Virus record (IMG/VR): IMGVR_UViG_2734482780_000004
DNA from: a virus
Taxonomy: Duplodnaviria > Heunggongvirae > Uroviricota > Caudoviricetes
Strand: one strand, 5' to 3'
Length of the DNA stretch: 7,365 bases
This document shows positions 2,410 to 7,365 of this stretch, piece by piece; within the stretch, counting starts at the first letter, position 1; the number at the start of each line of letters is the position of its first letter. The position numbers and the translations under genes were made by a program. The notes beneath the pieces are model-generated. The model was given only the letters and a program-made list of their open reading frames with translations, was not told the DNA's origin and did no database searches.

Positions 2410-2688
2410 TCAGCAGTTCGTCATCAGGGCGTCACCGCCACCACCGGTGGCCTTGCTGCGGCGCTGCTGGGTCAGACTTTCGGTGTGGTCGAGACTGTTT
2501 TTCAGGCGGGTGAATGCCTGGCTGGTTTCATCCGCCCTGTCAGTCACCTCCTGCTTAAGTGCGGAAAAGGCGGTTTCCATCTCAGCGAGGCGCTGCTCAG
2601 TGGCGCTCAGTTTTTCCTGCACATGTTCAGCAACAGCGGTCACCGCTTCATGCACATCATTCAGACGGGCGTCATCGCTGGCCTGTTT
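2410..2688 (-). pseudogene. O: Capsid scaffold gene O, 3' remnant only (last 92 codons plus stop)
   Basis: The C-terminal 92 aa of the 264-aa track ORF 2410..3204 ([92 protein letters not shown]) match the gpO C-terminus as I recall it. Upstream of about 2689 the same frame is unrelated to gpO and is antisense to a terminase-like coding sequence. No gpO N-terminal sequence is present anywhere in the window. Confidence 0.7.
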
Positions 2689-3180
2689 GCCCCCATCAGC
2701 CGTGTCGAAATGAGCCTGGAAGCGCGGCTGACCCAGCTCATCATCAAACCGCAGAAAACCGGCGGTGACTTCAAGGAAATTGACCTGCTGGGACGCCAGA
2801 TTGAACGACTGGCGCGGGTCAACCGCTACAGTCAGACCGGCAACGAGGCAGACCTTAATCCGAACGTCGCTAACCGCAACAAAGGCGGGCGTCGCAAACC
2901 GAAAAAGAATTTTTTCAGTGACGAAGCCATCGAAAAGCTGGAGCAGATTTTCTTTGAGCAGTCTTTCGACTATCAGTTGCACTGGTATCGCGCCGGGCTT
3001 GAGCACCGCATCCGCGATATACTGAAATCCCGCCAGATTGGCGCAACGTTTTATTTTTCCCGCGAGGCGCTGCTGCGCGCCCTGAAAACCGGCCATAACC
3101 AGATTTTTCTGTCGGCCAGTAAAACGCAGGCGTATGTGTTCCGCGAATACATCATCGCCTTTGCCCGTCTGGCTGAATGA
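2689..3180 (+). pseudogene. P: Terminase large (ATPase) subunit gene P, N-proximal fragment of about 160 codons, ended by an out-of-context stop
   Basis: Plus-strand frame reads [44 protein letters not shown] ... [58 protein letters not shown]. It contains a P-loop-like KSRQIGAT motif typical of phage terminase ATPase N-domains. The fragment is far too short for the roughly 590-aa protein I recall. The frame upstream of about 2689 is antisense to the O remnant. Confidence 0.6.
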
Positions 3181-3649
3181 GTCGGCCACGCTGTTCCGCC
3201 GCAAGTATTACGAAAACGGCGCTCATGCCGGATATATCATGTACGTCACCGATGCCGTGCAGGATCGCAACGATATCGAAATGCTTCGCGAAAACATGGT
3301 CAAGTCGAAAGGCCGCAACAACTTTAAAAATCTGTTTCTCTATGCCCCGCAGGGGAAAGCCGACGGCATTAAAATTATCCCGCTCAGTGAAGTGGCAACG
3401 AAGGACGATTTTTTTAATATCAAAAAAGCCAGCGCCGCTGACCTGCTGGACGCGCACCGCATCCCCTTTCAGTTGATGGGCGGCAAGCCGGAGAACGTCG
3501 GGTCGCTGGGTGATATTGAGAAAGTGGCAAAGGTCTTTGTCCGCAATGAGCTTATCCCGCTACAGGACAGAATTCGGGAAATAAACGGCTGGCTCGGTCA
3601 GGAGGTCATCCGCTTTAAAAACTACTCACTGGACACTGACAACGGCTGA
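3181..3649 (+). pseudogene. Q: Portal gene Q, 3' remnant (about 155 codons), out of frame with the P fragment
   Basis: Track ORF 3134..3649 ends ...HRIPFQLMGGKPENVGSLGDIEKVAKVFVRNELIPLQDRIREINGWLGQEVIRFKNYSLDTDNG, which I recognise as a P2-type portal C-terminus. It is followed by a terminator and then cos, as expected for the end of Q. The first roughly 16 codons of the track ORF ([16 protein letters not shown]) are the alternative frame of the P-fragment 3' end, so the real junction is near 3165-3185. It is far shorter than the roughly 344-aa portal I recall. Confidence 0.6.
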
Positions 3650-3654
3650 ACATC

Positions 3655-3676
3655 GCCGCCTGCGGGCGGCTTTTTT
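3655..3676 (+). terminator. Rho-independent terminator downstream of the Q remnant
   Basis: GCCGCC (3655-3660), loop TGCG, GGCGGC (3665-3670), then TTTTTT (3671-3676), starting 6 nt after the stop at 3647-3649. Confidence 0.7.
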
Positions 3677-3817
3677 ACACCCCGTCATCCCCCCTCACAC
3701 GCTCACCACCGCACAAAACACCCCGCAGACACACCAACGCCTCAACGGGCAGACTAAGCGCCTTCACGACGCGCTCAGACGCTGAAAAAATAAAATCAGC
3801 ACCACCGCCAGCGCGCA

Positions 3818-3836
3818 GTGCTTTCCCCGCCTCGCC
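3818..3836. other. cos: cos site: P2 19-nt cohesive-end sequence (cosN)
   Basis: GTGCTTTCCCCGCCTCGCC at 3818-3836 is the exact reverse complement of the P2 cohesive-end sequence GGCGAGGCGGGGAAAGCAC as I recall it. It lies about 170 bp beyond the portal gene stop in a C-rich non-coding stretch, the expected location. Confidence 0.75.
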
Positions 3837-3994
3837 CGCCCGCTTCATAGGTCGGTTTTAATGCAGGTGCATTACCACTTTTGAGGGGCGTCCGTCCTGA
3901 CGGTGCACAGCCAGAACATGCAACTTAGGCACATGCAAAACCACGCACATATTGCATGCACTGCTAAAAATAGGAGTATCGCAGAAAAAAACAC

Positions 3995-4024
3995 AAAAAA
4001 ACCGGCATTCATAGTGCCGGTTTT
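3995..4024. terminator. Bidirectional intrinsic terminator hairpin between cos and the cargo island
   Basis: A-tract 3995-4000, stem ACCGGCA (4001-4007), 7-nt loop TTCATAG, stem TGCCGGT (4015-4021), then T-run through 4024. The A-tract/T-tract symmetry allows termination on either strand. Confidence 0.55.
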
Positions 4025-4159
4025 GGCCAATTTTTAAAGTTGTCACTGGCCGCGCAATGCACCAATCTCACTGTTGACGCACATGTTGACAACAATTAGC
4101 AGAACAATCGTGTCCACACATTTTTACAAACGACACCTAACAGATTGATACAGATCATT

Positions 4160-4354
4160 TTATTTGTTCATTCGAATATAATTCAATAGCATCTTGATGA
4201 CCTGAGCGAGTTCTACGCTAGTTGCCTGCGCAACCAGCTTATCGGTATATATGTCAACTTCGCGTGAACTAAGATCATTGTTTTGTGCCAGAGTGGTAAT
4301 CTGCCTCGTCCAGCGTTTAACCCACTCATTATCAAAAGAAATGGAATTTTGCAT
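4160..4354 (-). CDS. Possible small protein (64 aa), head-to-head with the first cargo gene; coding status uncertain
   Basis: Track ORF MQNSISFDNEWVKRWTRQITTLAQNNDLSSREVDIYTDKLVAQATSVELAQVIKMLLNYIRMNK. Its ATG (4354..4352) shares the palindromic GCATGT with the plus-strand ATG at 4353. There is no convincing Shine-Dalgarno, and the region also carries plus-strand promoter-like hexamers. Confidence 0.25.
   Translation of the reverse strand: MQNSISFDNEWVKRWTRQITTLAQNNDLSSREVDIYTDKLVAQATSVELAQVIKMLLNYIRMNK
4177..4182 (+). promoter_or_regulatory. Candidate -10 element (TATAAT) for the cargo operon
   Basis: Perfect TATAAT at 4177-4182 in an AT-rich stretch about 170 nt upstream of the 4353 start. 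The -35 match is poor (ATCATT at 4154-4159). An alternative is TTTACA (4123-4128), 17-nt spacer, TGATAC. Confidence 0.25.
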
Positions 4355-4790
4355 GTCGAAAAATCTCGATTTATTTAACCAACAAACGGCGGAAATCTTT
4401 GCAGTACTATGGGAAAATTTTCCCGTACCACAGGTGATTAACTACGACAAATTTAACGCCGCGCTACCTGATGACTACTTTGACCAACTTAACTCACCAG
4501 AAATGAAAGCGTTAAATCAGTTGCGTAGTGTGGTTGAAGGTACATTCAATTTTCTCTGTGAAAACGGGTACATTCAGTACAACACAGACCATCAGTCGTA
4601 TTTTTACGATGTTCGACTTACTGAAAAAGCGCTCACAGTTCTTAACAAAAAACCCGAGGTGCTTGGTGGAAATGAAACGATGGGGGATAAAGTGATCAGT
4701 GCGGTGAAAGATGGGACTCCTGGGGTCATTGCCGGTGTGATTACAAATCTGCTGACTCACGGCGTTAATCTGGTTGCGTCAGTGTCATAG
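4353..4790 (+). CDS. Hypothetical protein, 145 aa, with a Gly-rich hydrophobic C-terminal tail
   Basis: ORF MSKNLDLFNQQTAEIFAVLWENFPVPQVINYDKFNAALPDDYFDQ ... AVKDGTPGVIAGVITNLLTHGVNLVASVS, ending at TAG 4788-4790. An alternative ATG at 4341 would add MEFC. The extended track start at 4251 is rejected because its N-terminal 30 codons are Cys/Arg-rich and antisense-like. Shine-Dalgarno is weak (GGAA 4343-4346). The gene is AT-rich, unlike the phage core. Confidence 0.6.
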   Translation: MSKNLDLFNQQTAEIFAVLWENFPVPQVINYDKFNAALPDDYFDQLNSPEMKALNQLRSVVEGTFNFLCENGYIQYNTDHQSYFYDVRLTEKALTVLNKKPEVLGGNETMGDKVISAVKDGTPGVIAGVITNLLTHGVNLVASVS

Positions 4791-4952: not shown

Positions 4953-6044
4953 ATGGGTTACGAAATTGATTTTCTAGCTGTTGGCGAAAAAAAAAGCGGC
5001 GATGCGATCTGCATCAGATGGGGAAACCTACATGGTTCAAGAGATGAACAAAAAGTTGTCGTTATTGATGCAGGATATGCCAGCACCGGAGAACAAGTCA
5101 TTGAGCATATTGAAAAATACTACCGCACAAAAACTATTGACTTGCTTATCTCCACACACCCCGATGGTGACCACGTCGGTGGACTTACATCTGTTCTAGA
5201 AAATGCAGAAGTAAAAGAGTTTTGGATTCATAAGCCTTGGGAACATAATCAAGGTCTCGCAAGTGAGTTTGCAGATGGCAGGATAACTGATGCCAGTATT
5301 GCAAATCGAATGAAAGAAAACTTACAAAAAGCTTATGACGCTGTCAAATTAGCGGAAAAAAAAGGAATTGAAATAAAAGAGCCTTTTCAAGGAATGACCT
5401 GGGATAATGCTACTCTGGTTGTTATCGGGCCAACCCAATCTTACTATGAGACTCTAATACCTGATTTCGCAAGAATGCCCAAAAAAGCTGAGGATACAGC
5501 TGGATTTGAAGTACTAAAAGCAGTCTTTGAGTCTGTAGTTGAAAAAACGAAGAAATTTATTGATTACGTTGCTGAATGGTTTACTGATGAAGGTATTGAT
5601 AATGAAGATACCACCTCGGCACAAAATAACTCAAGTGTCATTTTGAAACTTGAGATTGATGGAAGAACGTTAGTGTTCACTGGCGATGCTGGTATAACAG
5701 CCTTAGATCAAGCCTCCCAATACATTAATAAAGAATCATTAAGATTCATTCAAGTACCTCATCATGGTAGCCGGAGAAATGTAGGCCCTGATGTTCTCGA
5801 TAAACTTGTTGGTAACATTGTAAATGAAGGCGAAAAAAGGGAGATAACCGCATTTGTATCATGTGCCCCAGGTTCAGATAAACATCCCCATCAAGCTGTA
5901 ATTAATGCCTTTACTCGACGAGGAGCGAAAGTTATCGCCACCGAGGGGCTTGGTAAGTACCATTTTTATAATGCTCCTGAAAGGGCAGGATGGAAAACAG
6001 CCACTCCACGATCATACATTAGTAACTATAGAACCGAAGAATAA
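4953..6044 (+). CDS. Metallo-beta-lactamase-fold metal-dependent hydrolase (ComEC-like subfamily by motifs), 363 aa; possible nuclease
   Basis: Strong Shine-Dalgarno AAGGA (4942-4946) 6 nt before ATG 4953. MBL-fold motif series in order: VVVIDAGY, STHPDGDHVGG (HxHxDH position, with Asp replacing the second His), VFTGDAG, VPHHGS. A roughly 140-aa acidic/Lys-rich insertion sits between the N- and C-terminal halves of the fold. Stop is TAA 6042-6044. Confidence 0.85.
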   Translation: MGYEIDFLAVGEKKSGDAICIRWGNLHGSRDEQKVVVIDAGYASTGEQVIEHIEKYYRTKTIDLLISTHPDGDHVGGLTSVLENAEVKEFWIHKPWEHNQGLASEFADGRITDASIANRMKENLQKAYDAVKLAEKKGIEIKEPFQGMTWDNATLVVIGPTQSYYETLIPDFARMPKKAEDTAGFEVLKAVFESVVEKTKKFIDYVAEWFTDEGIDNEDTTSAQNNSSVILKLEIDGRTLVFTGDAGITALDQASQYINKESLRFIQVPHHGSRRNVGPDVLDKLVGNIVNEGEKREITAFVSCAPGSDKHPHQAVINAFTRRGAKVIATEGLGKYHFYNAPERAGWKTATPRSYISNYRTEE

Positions 6045-6049
6045 TTCAA

Positions 6050-6069
6050 AAGCTGCCTTACGGCAGCTT
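6050..6069. terminator. Hairpin between the convergent hydrolase and membrane-protein genes
   Basis: AAGCTGCC (6050-6057), loop TTAC, GGCAGCTT (6062-6069), starting 6 nt after the hydrolase stop and overlapping the last codons of the minus-strand gene. There is no long T-run on either side, so terminator function is inferred. Confidence 0.45.
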
Positions 6070-6690
6070 ATTATTAACAGCATTTACTCTATATATTATG
6101 TATCTTATTTGTTTAATATATGAGACAACAAACAAAATAGCAAAAACCGCCAACGTTATTTTAGATAAGCCATATGTCTCGCCAGTAAACCGTCCTACAA
6201 CGCACAATGTCGCCAAAAGAATAATTGACATTGAAAATATCGTCCTATACATATTCGCAATCTCTTGCAAAGTTTCAATTTTTCCATCCACACCACATGC
6301 TGACACATAATCTTTATAAGGAGCAAACTTAATCAAACGCGATAGTTTTAAAAAAGGTTCCAATACGATAGAACCAATCCGGCCAATGACTAAGCCAACA
6401 AAATAATAGAGGACAACATTTTTTATTAAATCATCGCCAGATAAAACGATATTCGTCATTCTCTCAAGAAGATAAATAAAAAGAGCACCTGGAAAAAGAT
6501 TATTAAATATATTATATGACGATATTTTTTCCCATAAACCATCCATACCAATCACCTTACTACAGTTTAAATCAGAGATCATTTTCATTGAAAAATACAT
6601 ATATAGCAAGAAATCTATAGCGATTCTGACATCCAACCTGAGTCTATCAGTAGTTAATCTCTTCAGAAAAGAGTGCATAACGAAAACCAA
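6058..6690 (-). CDS. Multi-pass membrane protein (about 4 predicted TM helices), 162-210 aa depending on start
   Basis: Track ORF with four hydrophobic segments: LFPGALFIYLL, VVLYYFVGLVIGRIGSIVL, IFSMSIILLATLCVVGRF, ITLAVFAILFVVSYI. The track start at 6690 is TTG; the first ATG is at 6678 with no Shine-Dalgarno. The ATG at 6546 (MDGLWEK) has a good AGGTGAT Shine-Dalgarno (6557-6551). The frame is open across 48 AT-rich codons upstream of 6546, which mildly favours the longer form. Confidence 0.6.
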   Translation of the reverse strand: MVFVMHSFLKRLTTDRLRLDVRIAIDFLLYMYFSMKMISDLNCSKVIGMDGLWEKISSYNIFNNLFPGALFIYLLERMTNIVLSGDDLIKNVVLYYFVGLVIGRIGSIVLEPFLKLSRLIKFAPYKDYVSACGVDGKIETLQEIANMYRTIFSMSIILLATLCVVGRFTGETYGLSKITLAVFAILFVVSYIKQIRYIIYRVNAVNNKLP

Positions 6691-6794: not shown

Positions 6795-6821
6795 TATATA
6801 AATACTAGTAATTTATCACAA
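6795..6821 (-). promoter_or_regulatory. Candidate sigma70 promoter for the membrane-protein gene
   Basis: On the minus strand, TTGTGA (6821..6816), a 15-nt spacer, then TATATA (6800..6795). The alternative is a 17-nt spacer with TATAGA. It lies about 100 nt upstream of the ORF start. Confidence 0.3.
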
Positions 6822-6840: not shown

Positions 6841-6985
6841 GCGATGGCACAAATGCAAGCGGTTTTAACGGACTTCCGTTTCTTTGCTGACGATTTGGTA
6901 TTCTCAGACCGTGTTTTAATGCACCTCTGAGCGCCCTCACGACCGCCGGATCATTCCATTCGATTACCCGTCATCAAATTGATTC
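6841..6985. repeat. Direct repeat copy 1: degenerate, frameshifted duplicate of part of the flanking gene
   Basis: Positions 6859-6985 align with 7191-7320 at about 90% identity by hand alignment (gcggttttaacggacttccgtttctttgctgacgatttgg...). Weaker similarity extends to about 6841 and 7172. In a shifted minus-strand frame copy 1 encodes RVIEWNDPAVVRALRGALKHGLRIPNRQQRNGSPLKPLAFVPSRG, closed immediately upstream by stop codons. Confidence 0.8.
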
Positions 6986-7365
6986 CACTCTGTTATAGTT
7001 GAATATCCCGGCCACTCATCAGCGACCGGATACGTGAATTTTTTCCCGTCATAATTTACGGTTGCCCCACGCGCCAGCGACTCAAGCTCCCATCGCTGAG
7101 GTCTGATACCGTTCTGAGCAAGATCAACGCGAATACGGGTAATTTGCAATCGCTCCGACCTGGTCAGCCTGGCTGATGGCGCTATTTCATGCGGTTTTAA
7201 CGGACTTCCGTTTCTTTGCTGACGATTTGGTGTTCTCAGTCCGCATTTTAATGCACCTCTGAGCGCCCTCACAACCTCCGGGTCACTCCATTCGATAACA
7301 CCGTCATCAACCAGATTAAGCACTGCTGCGGCGTGTTCAGAAGGTGTGGGAGCCGGTAACGAAGT
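6964..7365 (-). CDS. Phage protein of unknown identity, 3' part only (at least 133 codons; N-terminus beyond window end)
   Basis: The minus-strand frame is open from the window end (TSLPAPTPSEHAAAV, then LNLVDDGVIEWSDPEVVRALRGALKCGLRTPNRQQRNGSPLKPHEIAPSA ... TITEWNQFDDG) to stop TAA at 6966..6964. The track start at 7323 is only an internal GTG. Orientation and position fit the distal end of the P2 early/replication operon, but I cannot assign it to gene A or a neighbour from memory. Confidence 0.5.
   Translation of the reverse strand, partial: TSLPAPTPSEHAAAVLNLVDDGVIEWSDPEVVRALRGALKCGLRTPNRQQRNGSPLKPHEIAPSARLTRSERLQITRIRVDLAQNGIRPQRWELESLARGATVNYDGKKFTYPVADEWPGYSTITEWNQFDDG
7172..7320. repeat. 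Direct repeat copy 2: in-frame coding copy inside the flanking gene
   Basis: Partner of the 6841-6985 repeat. It encodes residues NLVDDGVIEWSDPEVVRALRGALKCGLRTPNRQQRNGSPLKPHEIAPSA of the minus-strand gene. Confidence 0.8.

What the first reader, a model, noticed from the sequence alone, without database searches (positions are those of the whole stretch)
6058..6690. Convergent multi-TM membrane protein closing the island
Four hydrophobic helices in a 162-210 aa protein, very AT-rich, transcribed toward the hydrolase gene from a putative promoter at the island boundary (6795-6821). Small multi-pass membrane proteins in phage accessory loci often act as abortive-infection effectors, superinfection-exclusion factors or immunity proteins. 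Convergent arrangement with a shared 3' hairpin suggests independent regulation from the hydrolase operon. The start is ambiguous: TTG 6690, ATG 6678, or ATG 6546, the only one with a good Shine-Dalgarno.
Basis: partly seen in the sequence, partly recalled or inferred. Interest (0 to 1): 0.55.

Follow-up and report, generated by a model that had tools for sequence, protein, structure and literature searches.

The report
Membrane partner of phage-borne nuclease
This is a real gene for a small four-helix inner-membrane protein that almost always travels with the neighbouring ComEC-like metallo-hydrolase as a two-gene cassette in the defence hotspot of a P2-like E. coli prophage; the pair is already listed as an untested anti-phage candidate (PADLOC PDC-M48), so its existence is not new but its mechanism is open.

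Summary
The ORF is real, but the gene is shorter than the finding says. It runs 6058-6546 (-), starts at ATG 6546 and encodes 162 aa. The upstream TTG 6690 and ATG 6678 are not used.

The protein has four transmembrane helices, with both ends predicted in the cytoplasm. It matches PADLOC PDC-M48A (E 1.5e-50). The convergent neighbour at 4953-6044 (+) is PDC-M48B (E 1e-100), a ComEC-like MBL-fold hydrolase with intact metal-binding residues.

The window is a P2-like E. coli prophage. The AT-rich island lies in the portal/cos-gpA defence hotspot, and Rousset 2022 already lists these exact proteins there, untested.

- **Co-occurrence:** the membrane gene lies within 4 kb of an MBL gene, usually adjacent, in 76-77 of 82 loci across many phyla and in 45 of 45 E. 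coli genomes. Most pairs are co-directional operons, so the convergent layout is a local peculiarity.
- **Third gene:** 4353-4790 is a separate module.
- **6A-MBL link:** the family is also the third gene in some 6A-MBL (E2-E1-JAB) operons.
- **Other partners:** this MBL clade also pairs with at least two other, unrelated small membrane-protein families.

Best model, inferred: the protein is a membrane-embedded anchor or controller of the nuclease, working like Zorya, Kiwa or SNIPE. The main rival is a pore-forming abortive-infection effector.

No fold relative was found. Interest is moderate.

The parts
6058..6546 (-). Coding sequence of the 162-aa four-helix inner-membrane protein (PADLOC PDC-M48A; phrog_11864; RefSeq WP_021561351). 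Stop codon TAA at 6058-6060.
   Evidence: PADLOC E 1.5e-50, matching from residue 49 of the long ORF. PHROG match is full length, 1-162. PGAP CDS. 189 homologues, and 1222 cluster representatives, almost all 158-216 aa. AF2 model pLDDT 87.8. dN/dS 0.12-0.17 between alleles.
6553..6558 (-). Shine-Dalgarno sequence AAGGTG, 6 nt upstream of ATG 6546.
   Evidence: Conserved as AAGGTG or GAGGTG in the two diverged alleles L002 and L003.
6581..6609 (-). Promoter-like element: -35 TTGCTA (6609-6604), 17-nt spacer, -10 GAAAAT (6586-6581). Function is inferred.
   Evidence: Both hexamers and the spacing are identical in L002 despite about 28% nucleotide divergence. A similar element is present in L003. 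At 8 of 12 consensus matches it falls below the scan threshold.
6050..6069 (.). 8-bp GC-rich hairpin (AAGCTGCC-GTAA-GGCAGCTT) between the convergent genes, with U-rich tracts on both strands. Probably a bidirectional intrinsic terminator.
   Evidence: Fold about -13.6 kcal/mol, z = -4.0 (+) and -2.4 (-). An equivalent hairpin is kept in L002 and L003, with a different stem sequence in L003.
4953..6044 (+). Partner gene: 363-aa ComEC-like MBL-fold metallo-hydrolase (PADLOC PDC-M48B; RefSeq WP_021561350). Presumed DNase.
   Evidence: PDC-M48B E 1.1e-100; LmuA-type MBL 1.6e-29; Avs1a 2.5e-14. Pfam Lactamase_B. ComEC_Rec2 TIGR00361 2e-13. The closest solved sequences are ComEC. Invariant residues are D39, H69, D73, H74, D245, H270, H271 and H311; D71 is nearly invariant.

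Best explanation
**What is shown.** The gene at 6058-6546 (-) encodes a 162-aa inner-membrane protein with four transmembrane helices. It is one half of a mobile two-gene cassette. The other half is the adjacent ComEC-like MBL-fold hydrolase (4953-6044, +). The cassette sits in the portal/cos-gpA anti-phage hotspot of a P2-like prophage.

**What is predicted.** Both ends of the protein, a 35-residue loop and almost all conserved polar residues (Y11, R56, S59, E63, Y77, N98, R101, K145, Q146) face the cytoplasm. This rests on the positive-inside rule.

**What is inferred.** The membrane protein most likely docks the nuclease on its conserved cytoplasmic face. That would hold a non-specific DNase at the inner membrane, away from the nucleoid, and release or activate it when a phage perturbs the membrane or injects DNA. 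Incoming DNA would then be cut at its point of entry. This is the logic shown for Zorya, Kiwa and SNIPE.

On this reading the nuclease is the effector and the membrane protein is its anchor, sensor or controller. It fills the position that a sensor-fused protease holds in Avs, Lamassu and Hachiman MBL modules, and that the E2-E1-JAB protein holds in 6A-MBL systems.
For: - **Gene and family:**
- **Hotspot context:** P2 capsid, terminase and portal genes lie on one side and the replication endonuclease gpA on the other. This locus is a validated reservoir of defence systems, and the exact proteins WP_021561351 + WP_021561350 are listed there.
- **Obligate pairing:** an MBL gene lies within 4 kb, usually adjacent, in 76-77 of 82 loci. 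There are 45 TM->MBL and 12 MBL->TM co-directional pairs with short or negative gaps. Pairing holds in 45 of 45 E. coli genomes, in isolated Peduoviruses and on plasmids. The distance matrices of the two proteins correlate (Mantel r = 0.35, 0 of 2000 permutations).
- **Which partner is swapped:** the membrane family is faithful to MBL. The MBL family pairs with PDC-M48A (38 of 105 assessable loci), an unrelated 4-TM family (51 of 105) and a third family (4 of 105). It also pairs with Cap2/3-like E2-E1-JAB proteins.
- **MBL as effector:** related MBLs in Avs, Lamassu and Hachiman systems are the effectors. They are Zn-dependent dsDNA nucleases that need an activator.
- **Intact active site:**
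- **Topology:** across 265 family members, K+R average 6.7 and 5.1 in loop 2 and the C-tail, against 0.4 and 1.0 in the short outer loops. Residues conserved at 95% or more cluster at the predicted cytoplasmic face. This fits a specific docking or regulatory surface better than a passive anchor.
- **Precedents:** membrane sensor plus DNA-targeting effector in Kiwa, Zorya and SNIPE.
Against: - No experiment exists. PDC-M48 is one of 145 explicitly untested candidates, and Rousset 2022 did not test it.
- Nuclease activity, membrane localisation and physical interaction are all inferred.
- Interchangeable small TM proteins are also typical of pore-forming effectors in CBASS-like systems, so the swapping pattern also fits the rival reading.
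- The periplasmic loops are very short and variable, so how the protein would sense anything outside the cell is unclear.
- No fold or sequence relative gives a functional hint.
Confidence: 0.45

Rival explanations
1. The membrane protein is the killing effector. On infection the MBL enzyme, acting as sensor or trigger, causes it to oligomerise and depolarise or permeabilise the inner membrane. This would be abortive infection.
For: - Small TM proteins are believed to be suicide effectors in many systems (Rousset 2022).
- The same MBL clade pairs with at least three unrelated small TM families. That swapping is typical of effector modules.
- In some 6A-MBL operons the TM gene sits where a CBASS effector would sit, after the Cap2/3-like gene.
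- An invariant Arg lies within the second helix.
Against: - Homologous MBLs are themselves lethal DNase effectors, and the active-site residues are invariant here. A second effector is therefore not needed.
- No known route lets a metallo-nuclease signal to a pore.
- The TM family is found almost only with MBL genes and not with other sensors.
- It has no similarity to any TM effector model in PADLOC.
Confidence: 0.27
2. The pair is a toxin-antitoxin or addiction module. The MBL nuclease is a constitutive toxin, and the membrane protein is its immunity or sequestering factor. The module stabilises mobile elements rather than defending against phages.
For: - The pair rides on prophages, on small plasmids (one also carrying CcdAB) and on conjugative plasmids.
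- The genes are tightly linked and often overlap.
Against: - E. coli GZEC065 carries an intact MBL allele while ISEc12 cuts the membrane gene. The MBL is therefore tolerated without its partner.
- Some genomes have a frameshifted MBL with an intact TM gene (L012, L053).
- The locus is a hotspot enriched for defence genes.
Confidence: 0.1
3. The pair has a non-defence role. Examples are a split ComEC-like DNA uptake or processing device, or a lysogenic-conversion or superinfection-exclusion membrane factor that acts on its own.
For: - PGAP names the partner 'ComEC/Rec2 family competence protein'.
- The nearest solved sequences are ComEC.
- About a quarter of cargo in the P2 hotspot is not defensive.
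Against: - The TM protein has no match to the ComEC Competence or any other Pfam domain.
- The MBL has no signal peptide in its sequence (read from the sequence).
- The family was picked up embedded in BREX, DISARM or type I RM systems.
- It co-occurs with the 6A-MBL anti-phage system.
- It is almost never found without an MBL gene.
Confidence: 0.1
4. The ORF is an independent cargo gene or a chance ORF, unrelated to the hydrolase.
For: It is on the opposite strand and has its own promoter-like element and terminator.
Against: - Co-occurrence is 45 of 45 E. coli genomes and 76-77 of 82 loci.
- Purifying selection acts on it: dN/dS 0.12-0.17.
- The family has 1222 cluster representatives.
Confidence: 0.02

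Closest known systems
PADLOC PDC-M48 (phage defence candidate M48; Payne et al. 2024 preprint, 10.1101/2024.01.29.577857)
   Same: Both window proteins match its models: A at E 1.5e-50 and B at E 1.1e-100. The genes are adjacent. This is the family the locus belongs to.
   Different: Nothing differs in kind. PDC-M48 is an untested candidate found by guilt-by-embedding, with no phenotype or mechanism. The window copy is convergent, whereas most copies are co-directional.
Arrangement 'hypothetical + Lactamase_B + hypothetical + hypothetical' in the P2 gpA-gpQ hotspot (Rousset et al. 2022, Table S5A)
   Same: Exactly the same proteins (WP_021561351, WP_021561350, WP_001752367, WP_023908566) at the same locus.
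   Different: It is only listed there. The accessions and 'Lactamase_B' occur only in Table S5, not in the table of tested systems, and it is not among the validated systems described.
6A-MBL anti-phage system (Iyer 2006, operon type 6a; NCBIfam NF058523/NF058524)
   Same: It uses a homologous ComEC-like MBL enzyme. In 17 of 82 loci the same membrane-protein family lies with bona fide 6A-MBL genes. In 9-10 of those it is the third gene, 11-52 nt after the E2-E1-JAB gene.
   Different: The window has no E2-E1-JAB gene. Its MBL scores 33.9 bits against a cut-off of 220. Iyer 2006 describes 6a as usually two genes and names no membrane protein among its components.
Protease-activated MBL nuclease modules (HamM, Avs, Lamassu, DRT; Tuck 2025; Evans 2025)
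   Same: The MBL is homologous (LmuA-type model E 1.6e-29, Avs1a 2.5e-14). There it is a latent Zn-dependent dsDNA nuclease effector that needs a partner to act.
   Different: No protease is encoded here. The only partner is a 4-TM protein. Whether this MBL is autoinhibited is unknown.
Kiwa, Zorya and SNIPE (membrane-localised DNA-targeting defences)
   Same: They work the same way in principle: a membrane-embedded component coupled to a cytoplasmic DNA-binding or DNA-cutting effector that acts at the phage entry site.
   Different: No sequence similarity was found to any other model in PADLOC-DB, which to my knowledge includes KwaA and ZorA/B; no SNIPE sequence was compared. No fold match was found either. 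The resemblance is one of logic only.
Rst_Hydrolase-3Tm (Rousset 2022; DefenseFinder)
   Same: A two-gene 'hydrolase + small TM protein' system from a P2/P4-family hotspot. It is active against T7.
   Different: That hydrolase is HAD-like, not MBL-fold, and the system sits in the P4 psu-int hotspot. It is not the same system.

Membership tests
PADLOC PDC-M48 | Protein A matches a PDC-M48A model | tested here: met
   PDLC04670 E 1.5e-50, covering profile positions 1-162 of 164.
PADLOC PDC-M48 | Protein B matches a PDC-M48B model and is encoded next to A | tested here: met
   PDLC04676 E 1.1e-100. The genes are 13 nt apart.
PADLOC PDC-M48 | Anti-phage activity | not testable with these tools
   Declared untested by its authors. 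No paper in the library mentions PDC-M48.
6A-MBL system (NCBIfam) | MBL enzyme reaches the NF058524 cut-off (220 bits) | tested here: not met
   33.9 bits, E 1.8e-8. True members in L009 and L019 score 359-401 bits.
6A-MBL system (NCBIfam) | Adjacent E2-E1-JAB (cap2_3) gene | tested here: not met
   No such ORF in the window.
Protease-MBL zymogen modules (HamM, Avs, Lamassu) | Trypsin-like, caspase-like or subtilisin-like protease encoded next to the MBL | tested here: not met
   Pfam and PADLOC scans of the four genes in the island found no protease domain.
Protease-MBL zymogen modules (HamM, Avs, Lamassu) | ComEC-like MBL nuclease with intact metal ligands | tested here: met
   LmuA-type model E 1.6e-29. 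D39, H69, D73, H74, D245, H270, H271 and H311 are invariant, and D71 is nearly invariant.
Rst_Hydrolase-3Tm | HAD-like hydrolase partner | tested here: not met
   The partner is Lactamase_B/MBL. The Rousset system is HAD-like.
Kiwa / Zorya | Sequence or fold similarity to KwaA or ZorA/ZorB | tested here: not met
ComEC | Membrane 'Competence' channel domain | tested here: not met
   No Pfam family matches the TM protein at E <= 0.1. Only the partner resembles the ComEC MBL domain.
Phosphohistidine phosphatase (name given by NCBI to many members) | Match to a histidine-phosphatase domain | tested here: not met
   No Pfam match, and only a noise-level NCBIfam match (ArlJ/FlaJ, E 0.027, 13 bits against a cut-off of 400). 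The protein is a four-helix membrane protein.

The most novel reading that the evidence does not exclude
PDC-M48A may be one face of a broad, unrecognised class of membrane-coupled immunity built on a ComEC-like nuclease.

- At least three sequence-unrelated families of small polytopic membrane proteins pair with the same nuclease clade. Two of them are in neither PADLOC nor Pfam.
- PDC-M48A is also built into a subset of ubiquitin-like 6A-MBL operons. There it could be the membrane tether of the nuclease. It could even be the target of Cap2/3-type conjugation, since invariant cytoplasmic lysines K7 and K145 are available.

If so, the P2 cassette is the minimal form of a system that gates DNA degradation at the site of phage genome entry.
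Probability: 0.3. Interest if true: 0.65.

Novelty: already known. Interest (0 to 1): 0.4.

Why it matters
The pair is a compact, 1.6-kb candidate defence cassette. Viable P2-like phages, plasmids and chromosomes of many phyla carry it, yet nobody has reported testing it.

If the membrane protein does control a non-specific ComEC-like DNase, it would add a third way of licensing this widespread nuclease effector, beside proteolysis and ubiquitin-like conjugation. It would also add a very small member to the class of defences that act at the membrane during genome injection.

Two things seen here did not turn up in the literature held:
- the link to 6A-MBL operons;
- the existence of alternative membrane partners.

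Both give concrete handles for experiments. For genome annotation, the gene start should be ATG 6546. The names 'phosphohistidine phosphatase' and 'competence protein' are misleading.

Tried and rejected
- **Rst_Hydrolase-3Tm.** I first recalled this known system as a match. Reading Rousset 2022 showed it is a HAD-like hydrolase in the P4 hotspot, so I rejected it.
- **Modelling the TM-MBL complex** as a linker fusion with a paired alignment (A3).
- **Fusion proteins as a Rosetta stone.** None appear among the best 150 of 1222 family representatives.
- **Remote homology to the alternative membrane partners.** hhalign against PDC-M48A gave probability 4.7% and 0.4%, so they are treated as unrelated. 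The two alternative clusters are related to each other at 81% probability.
- **An acidic C-terminal tail of the MBL as a docking peptide.** It is present only in the long MBL subtype, so it is not general.
- **Literature.** No paper held mentions PDC-M48. The paper that validated 6A-MBL (van den Berg 2024) is not in the library, so I could not check whether it describes a membrane component.
- **MBL profile search with all subtypes.** The alignment was too divergent for the locus finder. I repeated it with the long subtype only.

Full report
**Context.** The window is part of a P2-like prophage of Escherichia coli.
- On the minus strand lie the terminase small subunit gene (531-1274), the major capsid gene (1278-2351) and a scaffold remnant.
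- On the plus strand lie terminase and portal fragments, ending at 3649.
- At the right edge is the 3' end of the replication endonuclease gene gpA (6964-7323, minus).
- Between portal/cos and gpA lies an AT-rich island, 30-45% GC against 55-64% in the structural genes.
- This is the hotspot that Rousset et al. 2022 showed to hold old/tin in P2 and many anti-phage systems in P2-like prophages.
- Twenty-three complete E. coli genomes carry the same island at 99% identity or more.

**The observation.** An ORF does run 6058-6690 on the minus strand, but the gene is 6058-6546.
- The PADLOC and PHROG profiles start at Met49 of the long ORF.
- PGAP annotates a 489-nt CDS, WP_021561351.
- Of 189 homologues and 1222 cluster representatives, nearly all are 158-216 aa. 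They begin with the near-invariant motif EKISSYNIFNxLxPG straight after the start.
- The Shine-Dalgarno AAGGTG (6558-6553) and a promoter-like TTGCTA-17 nt-GAAAAT (6609-6581) are conserved in two alleles whose proteins are only 60-64% identical. That promoter lies inside the supposed N-terminal extension.
It lies in DNA that the other alleles lack.
- The 8-bp hairpin at 6050-6069 is real, with z = -4.0. It holds the stop codon in its loop, and an equivalent hairpin is kept in both other alleles, with a different stem sequence in L003.

**The protein.**
- An AlphaFold2 model built on 37 homologues is confident (pLDDT 87.8, pTM 0.80). It shows helices 13-31, 40-68, 77-86, 89-121 and 126-157. That is four membrane helices plus a short cytoplasmic helix.
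- Across 265 family members, K+R residues average 6.7 in the loop between helices 2 and 3 and 5.1 in the C-terminal tail. The two short outer loops average 0.4 and 1.0. This predicts both termini in the cytoplasm.
- Residues conserved at 95% or more are Y11, P19, G20, Y48, G51, R56, G58, S59, Y77, N98, R101, K145 and Q146. By that topology, almost all lie at the cytoplasmic face or leaflet.
- Such strict conservation of polar residues across phyla argues for a specific surface or site, not a passive anchor.
- The alleles are under purifying selection, with dN/dS 0.12-0.17.
- The NCBI name 'phosphohistidine phosphatase', carried by many members, has no support.

**The partner.** The convergent gene 4953-6044 encodes a 363-aa MBL-fold protein.
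- It matches PADLOC PDC-M48B (E 1e-100).
- It matches more weakly the MBL proteins of Lamassu, DRT and Avs systems, the ComEC/Rec2 model and solved ComEC structures.
- Its metal-binding residues are conserved: D39, the H69-x-D71-x-D73-H74 motif, D245, H270-H271 and H311 (D71 is nearly invariant, the rest invariant).
- Two 2025 studies showed that related MBLs are latent Zn-dependent dsDNA nucleases. A sensor-fused protease activates them.

**Co-occurrence, starting from the membrane gene.** A scan of one genome per species found 227 relatives, and I analysed 80 of these loci plus two E. coli loci, 82 in all.
- Profile searches found an MBL gene within 4 kb in 76-77 of the 82 loci. The exceptions are mostly at contig edges.
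- Immediate neighbours are 45 TM->MBL and 12 MBL->TM co-directional pairs, with gaps of about -20 to +40 nt. Only four pairs are convergent: the enterobacterial clade plus L082.
- In E. coli the pair occurs in 45 of 5426 complete genomes, as two alleles, and always with both genes.
- It is also in isolated Peduoviruses, on a 5.5-kb Citrobacter plasmid and on Clostridium perfringens conjugative plasmids.
- The distance matrices of the two proteins correlate (Mantel r = 0.35, 0 of 2000 permutations).

**The other island genes.** Gene 4353-4790 and the small divergent ORF 4160-4354 are a separate module.
- Gene 4353-4790 occurs without the TM-MBL pair in 56 E. coli genomes. In O157:H7 both genes sit beside a retron-type reverse transcriptase.
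- Both are absent from the other allele and from every other taxon.

**Co-occurrence, starting from the MBL gene.** I fetched 119 loci with the window-type MBL from metagenomes and IMG/VR; 105 could be assessed.
- 38 have PDC-M48A next to the MBL.
- 51 have an unrelated four-helix family of about 240 aa.
- 4 have a third small membrane family.
- 12 have none.
- The alternative partners have no PADLOC or Pfam match, although their MBLs are PDC-M48B at about E 1e-93.
- hhalign does not relate them to PDC-M48A.
- So the membrane protein is faithful to the MBL, while the MBL swaps membrane partners.

**Link to 6A-MBL.** In 17 of the 82 loci the membrane gene lies with genes that pass NCBIfam's equivalog cut-offs for the anti-phage 6A-MBL system. 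The MBL enzyme scores 359-401 bits and the cap2_3 E2-E1-JAB protein 513-599 bits in the two operons tested.
- In 9-10 of these loci the operon is MBL, then E2-E1-JAB, then the membrane protein.
- Those membrane proteins are strong PDC-M48A matches, E 1e-62 to 1e-67.
- Iyer et al. 2006 described this operon type as usually two genes. Later texts treat it as a CBASS-like conjugation pathway and as a jumbo-phage defence.
- I found no mention of a membrane component. The primary 2024 paper is not held.

**Mechanism.** Everything beyond gene structure, fold class, topology and co-occurrence is inference.
- The MBL is the module shared among many systems, and in its characterised relatives it is the lethal nuclease.
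- Its alternative neighbours are sensor-fused proteases, E2-E1-JAB proteins and small membrane proteins. They occupy the controller position.
- I therefore favour the membrane protein as the anchor, sensor or controller of the DNase. It would dock the enzyme on its conserved cytoplasmic face and confine or license cutting at the membrane when a phage injects DNA. Zorya, Kiwa and SNIPE work this way. Confidence is about 0.45.
- The main rival, at about 0.27, is that the membrane protein is a pore-forming abortive-infection effector. The swapping of membrane partners fits that too.
- A toxin-immunity reading is weakened by strain GZEC065. There ISEc12 cuts the membrane gene while the MBL allele stays intact.

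**Novelty.** The pair is PADLOC PDC-M48, one of 145 candidates that their authors state are untested. The exact proteins are in Table S5A of Rousset 2022.
- It is not Rst_Hydrolase-3Tm, which has a HAD-like hydrolase.
- It is not a 6A-MBL system, because there is no E2-E1-JAB gene and the MBL scores below the cut-off.
- It is not a protease-MBL module, because there is no protease.
- So the finding is already catalogued, while its mechanism is unknown.
- The 6A-MBL link and the alternative membrane partners are the parts I could not find described.

Noticed in passing
window 2687-2690 and 3169-3176: Compared with the intact prophage in strain WP4-S17-ESBL-08 (L001), the window lacks two blocks: 904 nt (scaffold N-terminus plus terminase N-terminus) and 1679 nt (terminase C-terminus plus portal N-terminus). 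Scaffold, terminase and portal genes are therefore all truncated and the prophage is defective, yet it keeps the island intact. No complete E. coli genome in the collection has both junctions contiguous.
   Followed up: partly
window 6843-6984 and 7175-7317: A direct repeat (125 nt at 89% plus 17 nt). The DNA just downstream of the gpA stop codon is a decayed second copy of the gpA 3' coding end. It looks like a scar of cassette exchange by recombination at the hotspot boundary.
   Followed up: partly
window 4160-4354 (-) and 4353-4790 (+): A 64-aa ORF (phrog_2454) and a 145-aa ORF (phrog_2266) diverge from overlapping start codons (CATG). Neither has a Pfam or PADLOC match. The same pair sits next to a retron-type reverse transcriptase in the P2 hotspot of O157:H7 strains, so it is a portal-proximal module independent of the TM-MBL pair. 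Its function is unknown.
   Followed up: partly
L009 2551-6489; also L005, L016, L019, L020, L029, L049, L074: Three-gene operons: 6A-MBL enzyme, then E2-E1-JAB (cap2_3), then a PDC-M48A membrane protein. The 6A-type MBLs end in Gly/Ala/Ser-rich tails, as expected for a protein whose C-terminus is adenylated and conjugated.
   Followed up: partly
L092 4084-4803, L088 4004-4735, L090 1955-2449 and about 50 other loci: Two further families of small polytopic membrane proteins (about 240 aa and about 165 aa) are encoded directly downstream of PDC-M48B-type MBL genes. They are not in PADLOC or Pfam, so PADLOC's two-gene model would miss more than half of these nuclease-plus-membrane-protein cassettes.
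   Followed up: partly
L084 (E. coli GZEC065), about 3600-4190: The membrane gene of the 72% allele is interrupted by an IS21-family element (ISEc12), while the MBL gene encodes the same protein (WP_021533447) as intact loci.
   Followed up: no
window 6058-6546 and 4953-6044 (database names): Misleading public names. Many members of the membrane family are called 'phosphohistidine phosphatase' by NCBI without any domain support. The MBL is called 'ComEC/Rec2 family competence protein' and falls in phrog_7043 'tail protein', matching only positions 619-901 of a 1077-position profile.
   Followed up: partly
window 3655-3670 (+) and 3998-4024 (-): Strong terminator-like hairpins flank the cos-proximal non-coding stretch after the portal gene: GCCGCC-TGCG-GGCGGC followed by T6, and a 10-bp stem followed by a T-run.
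   Followed up: no
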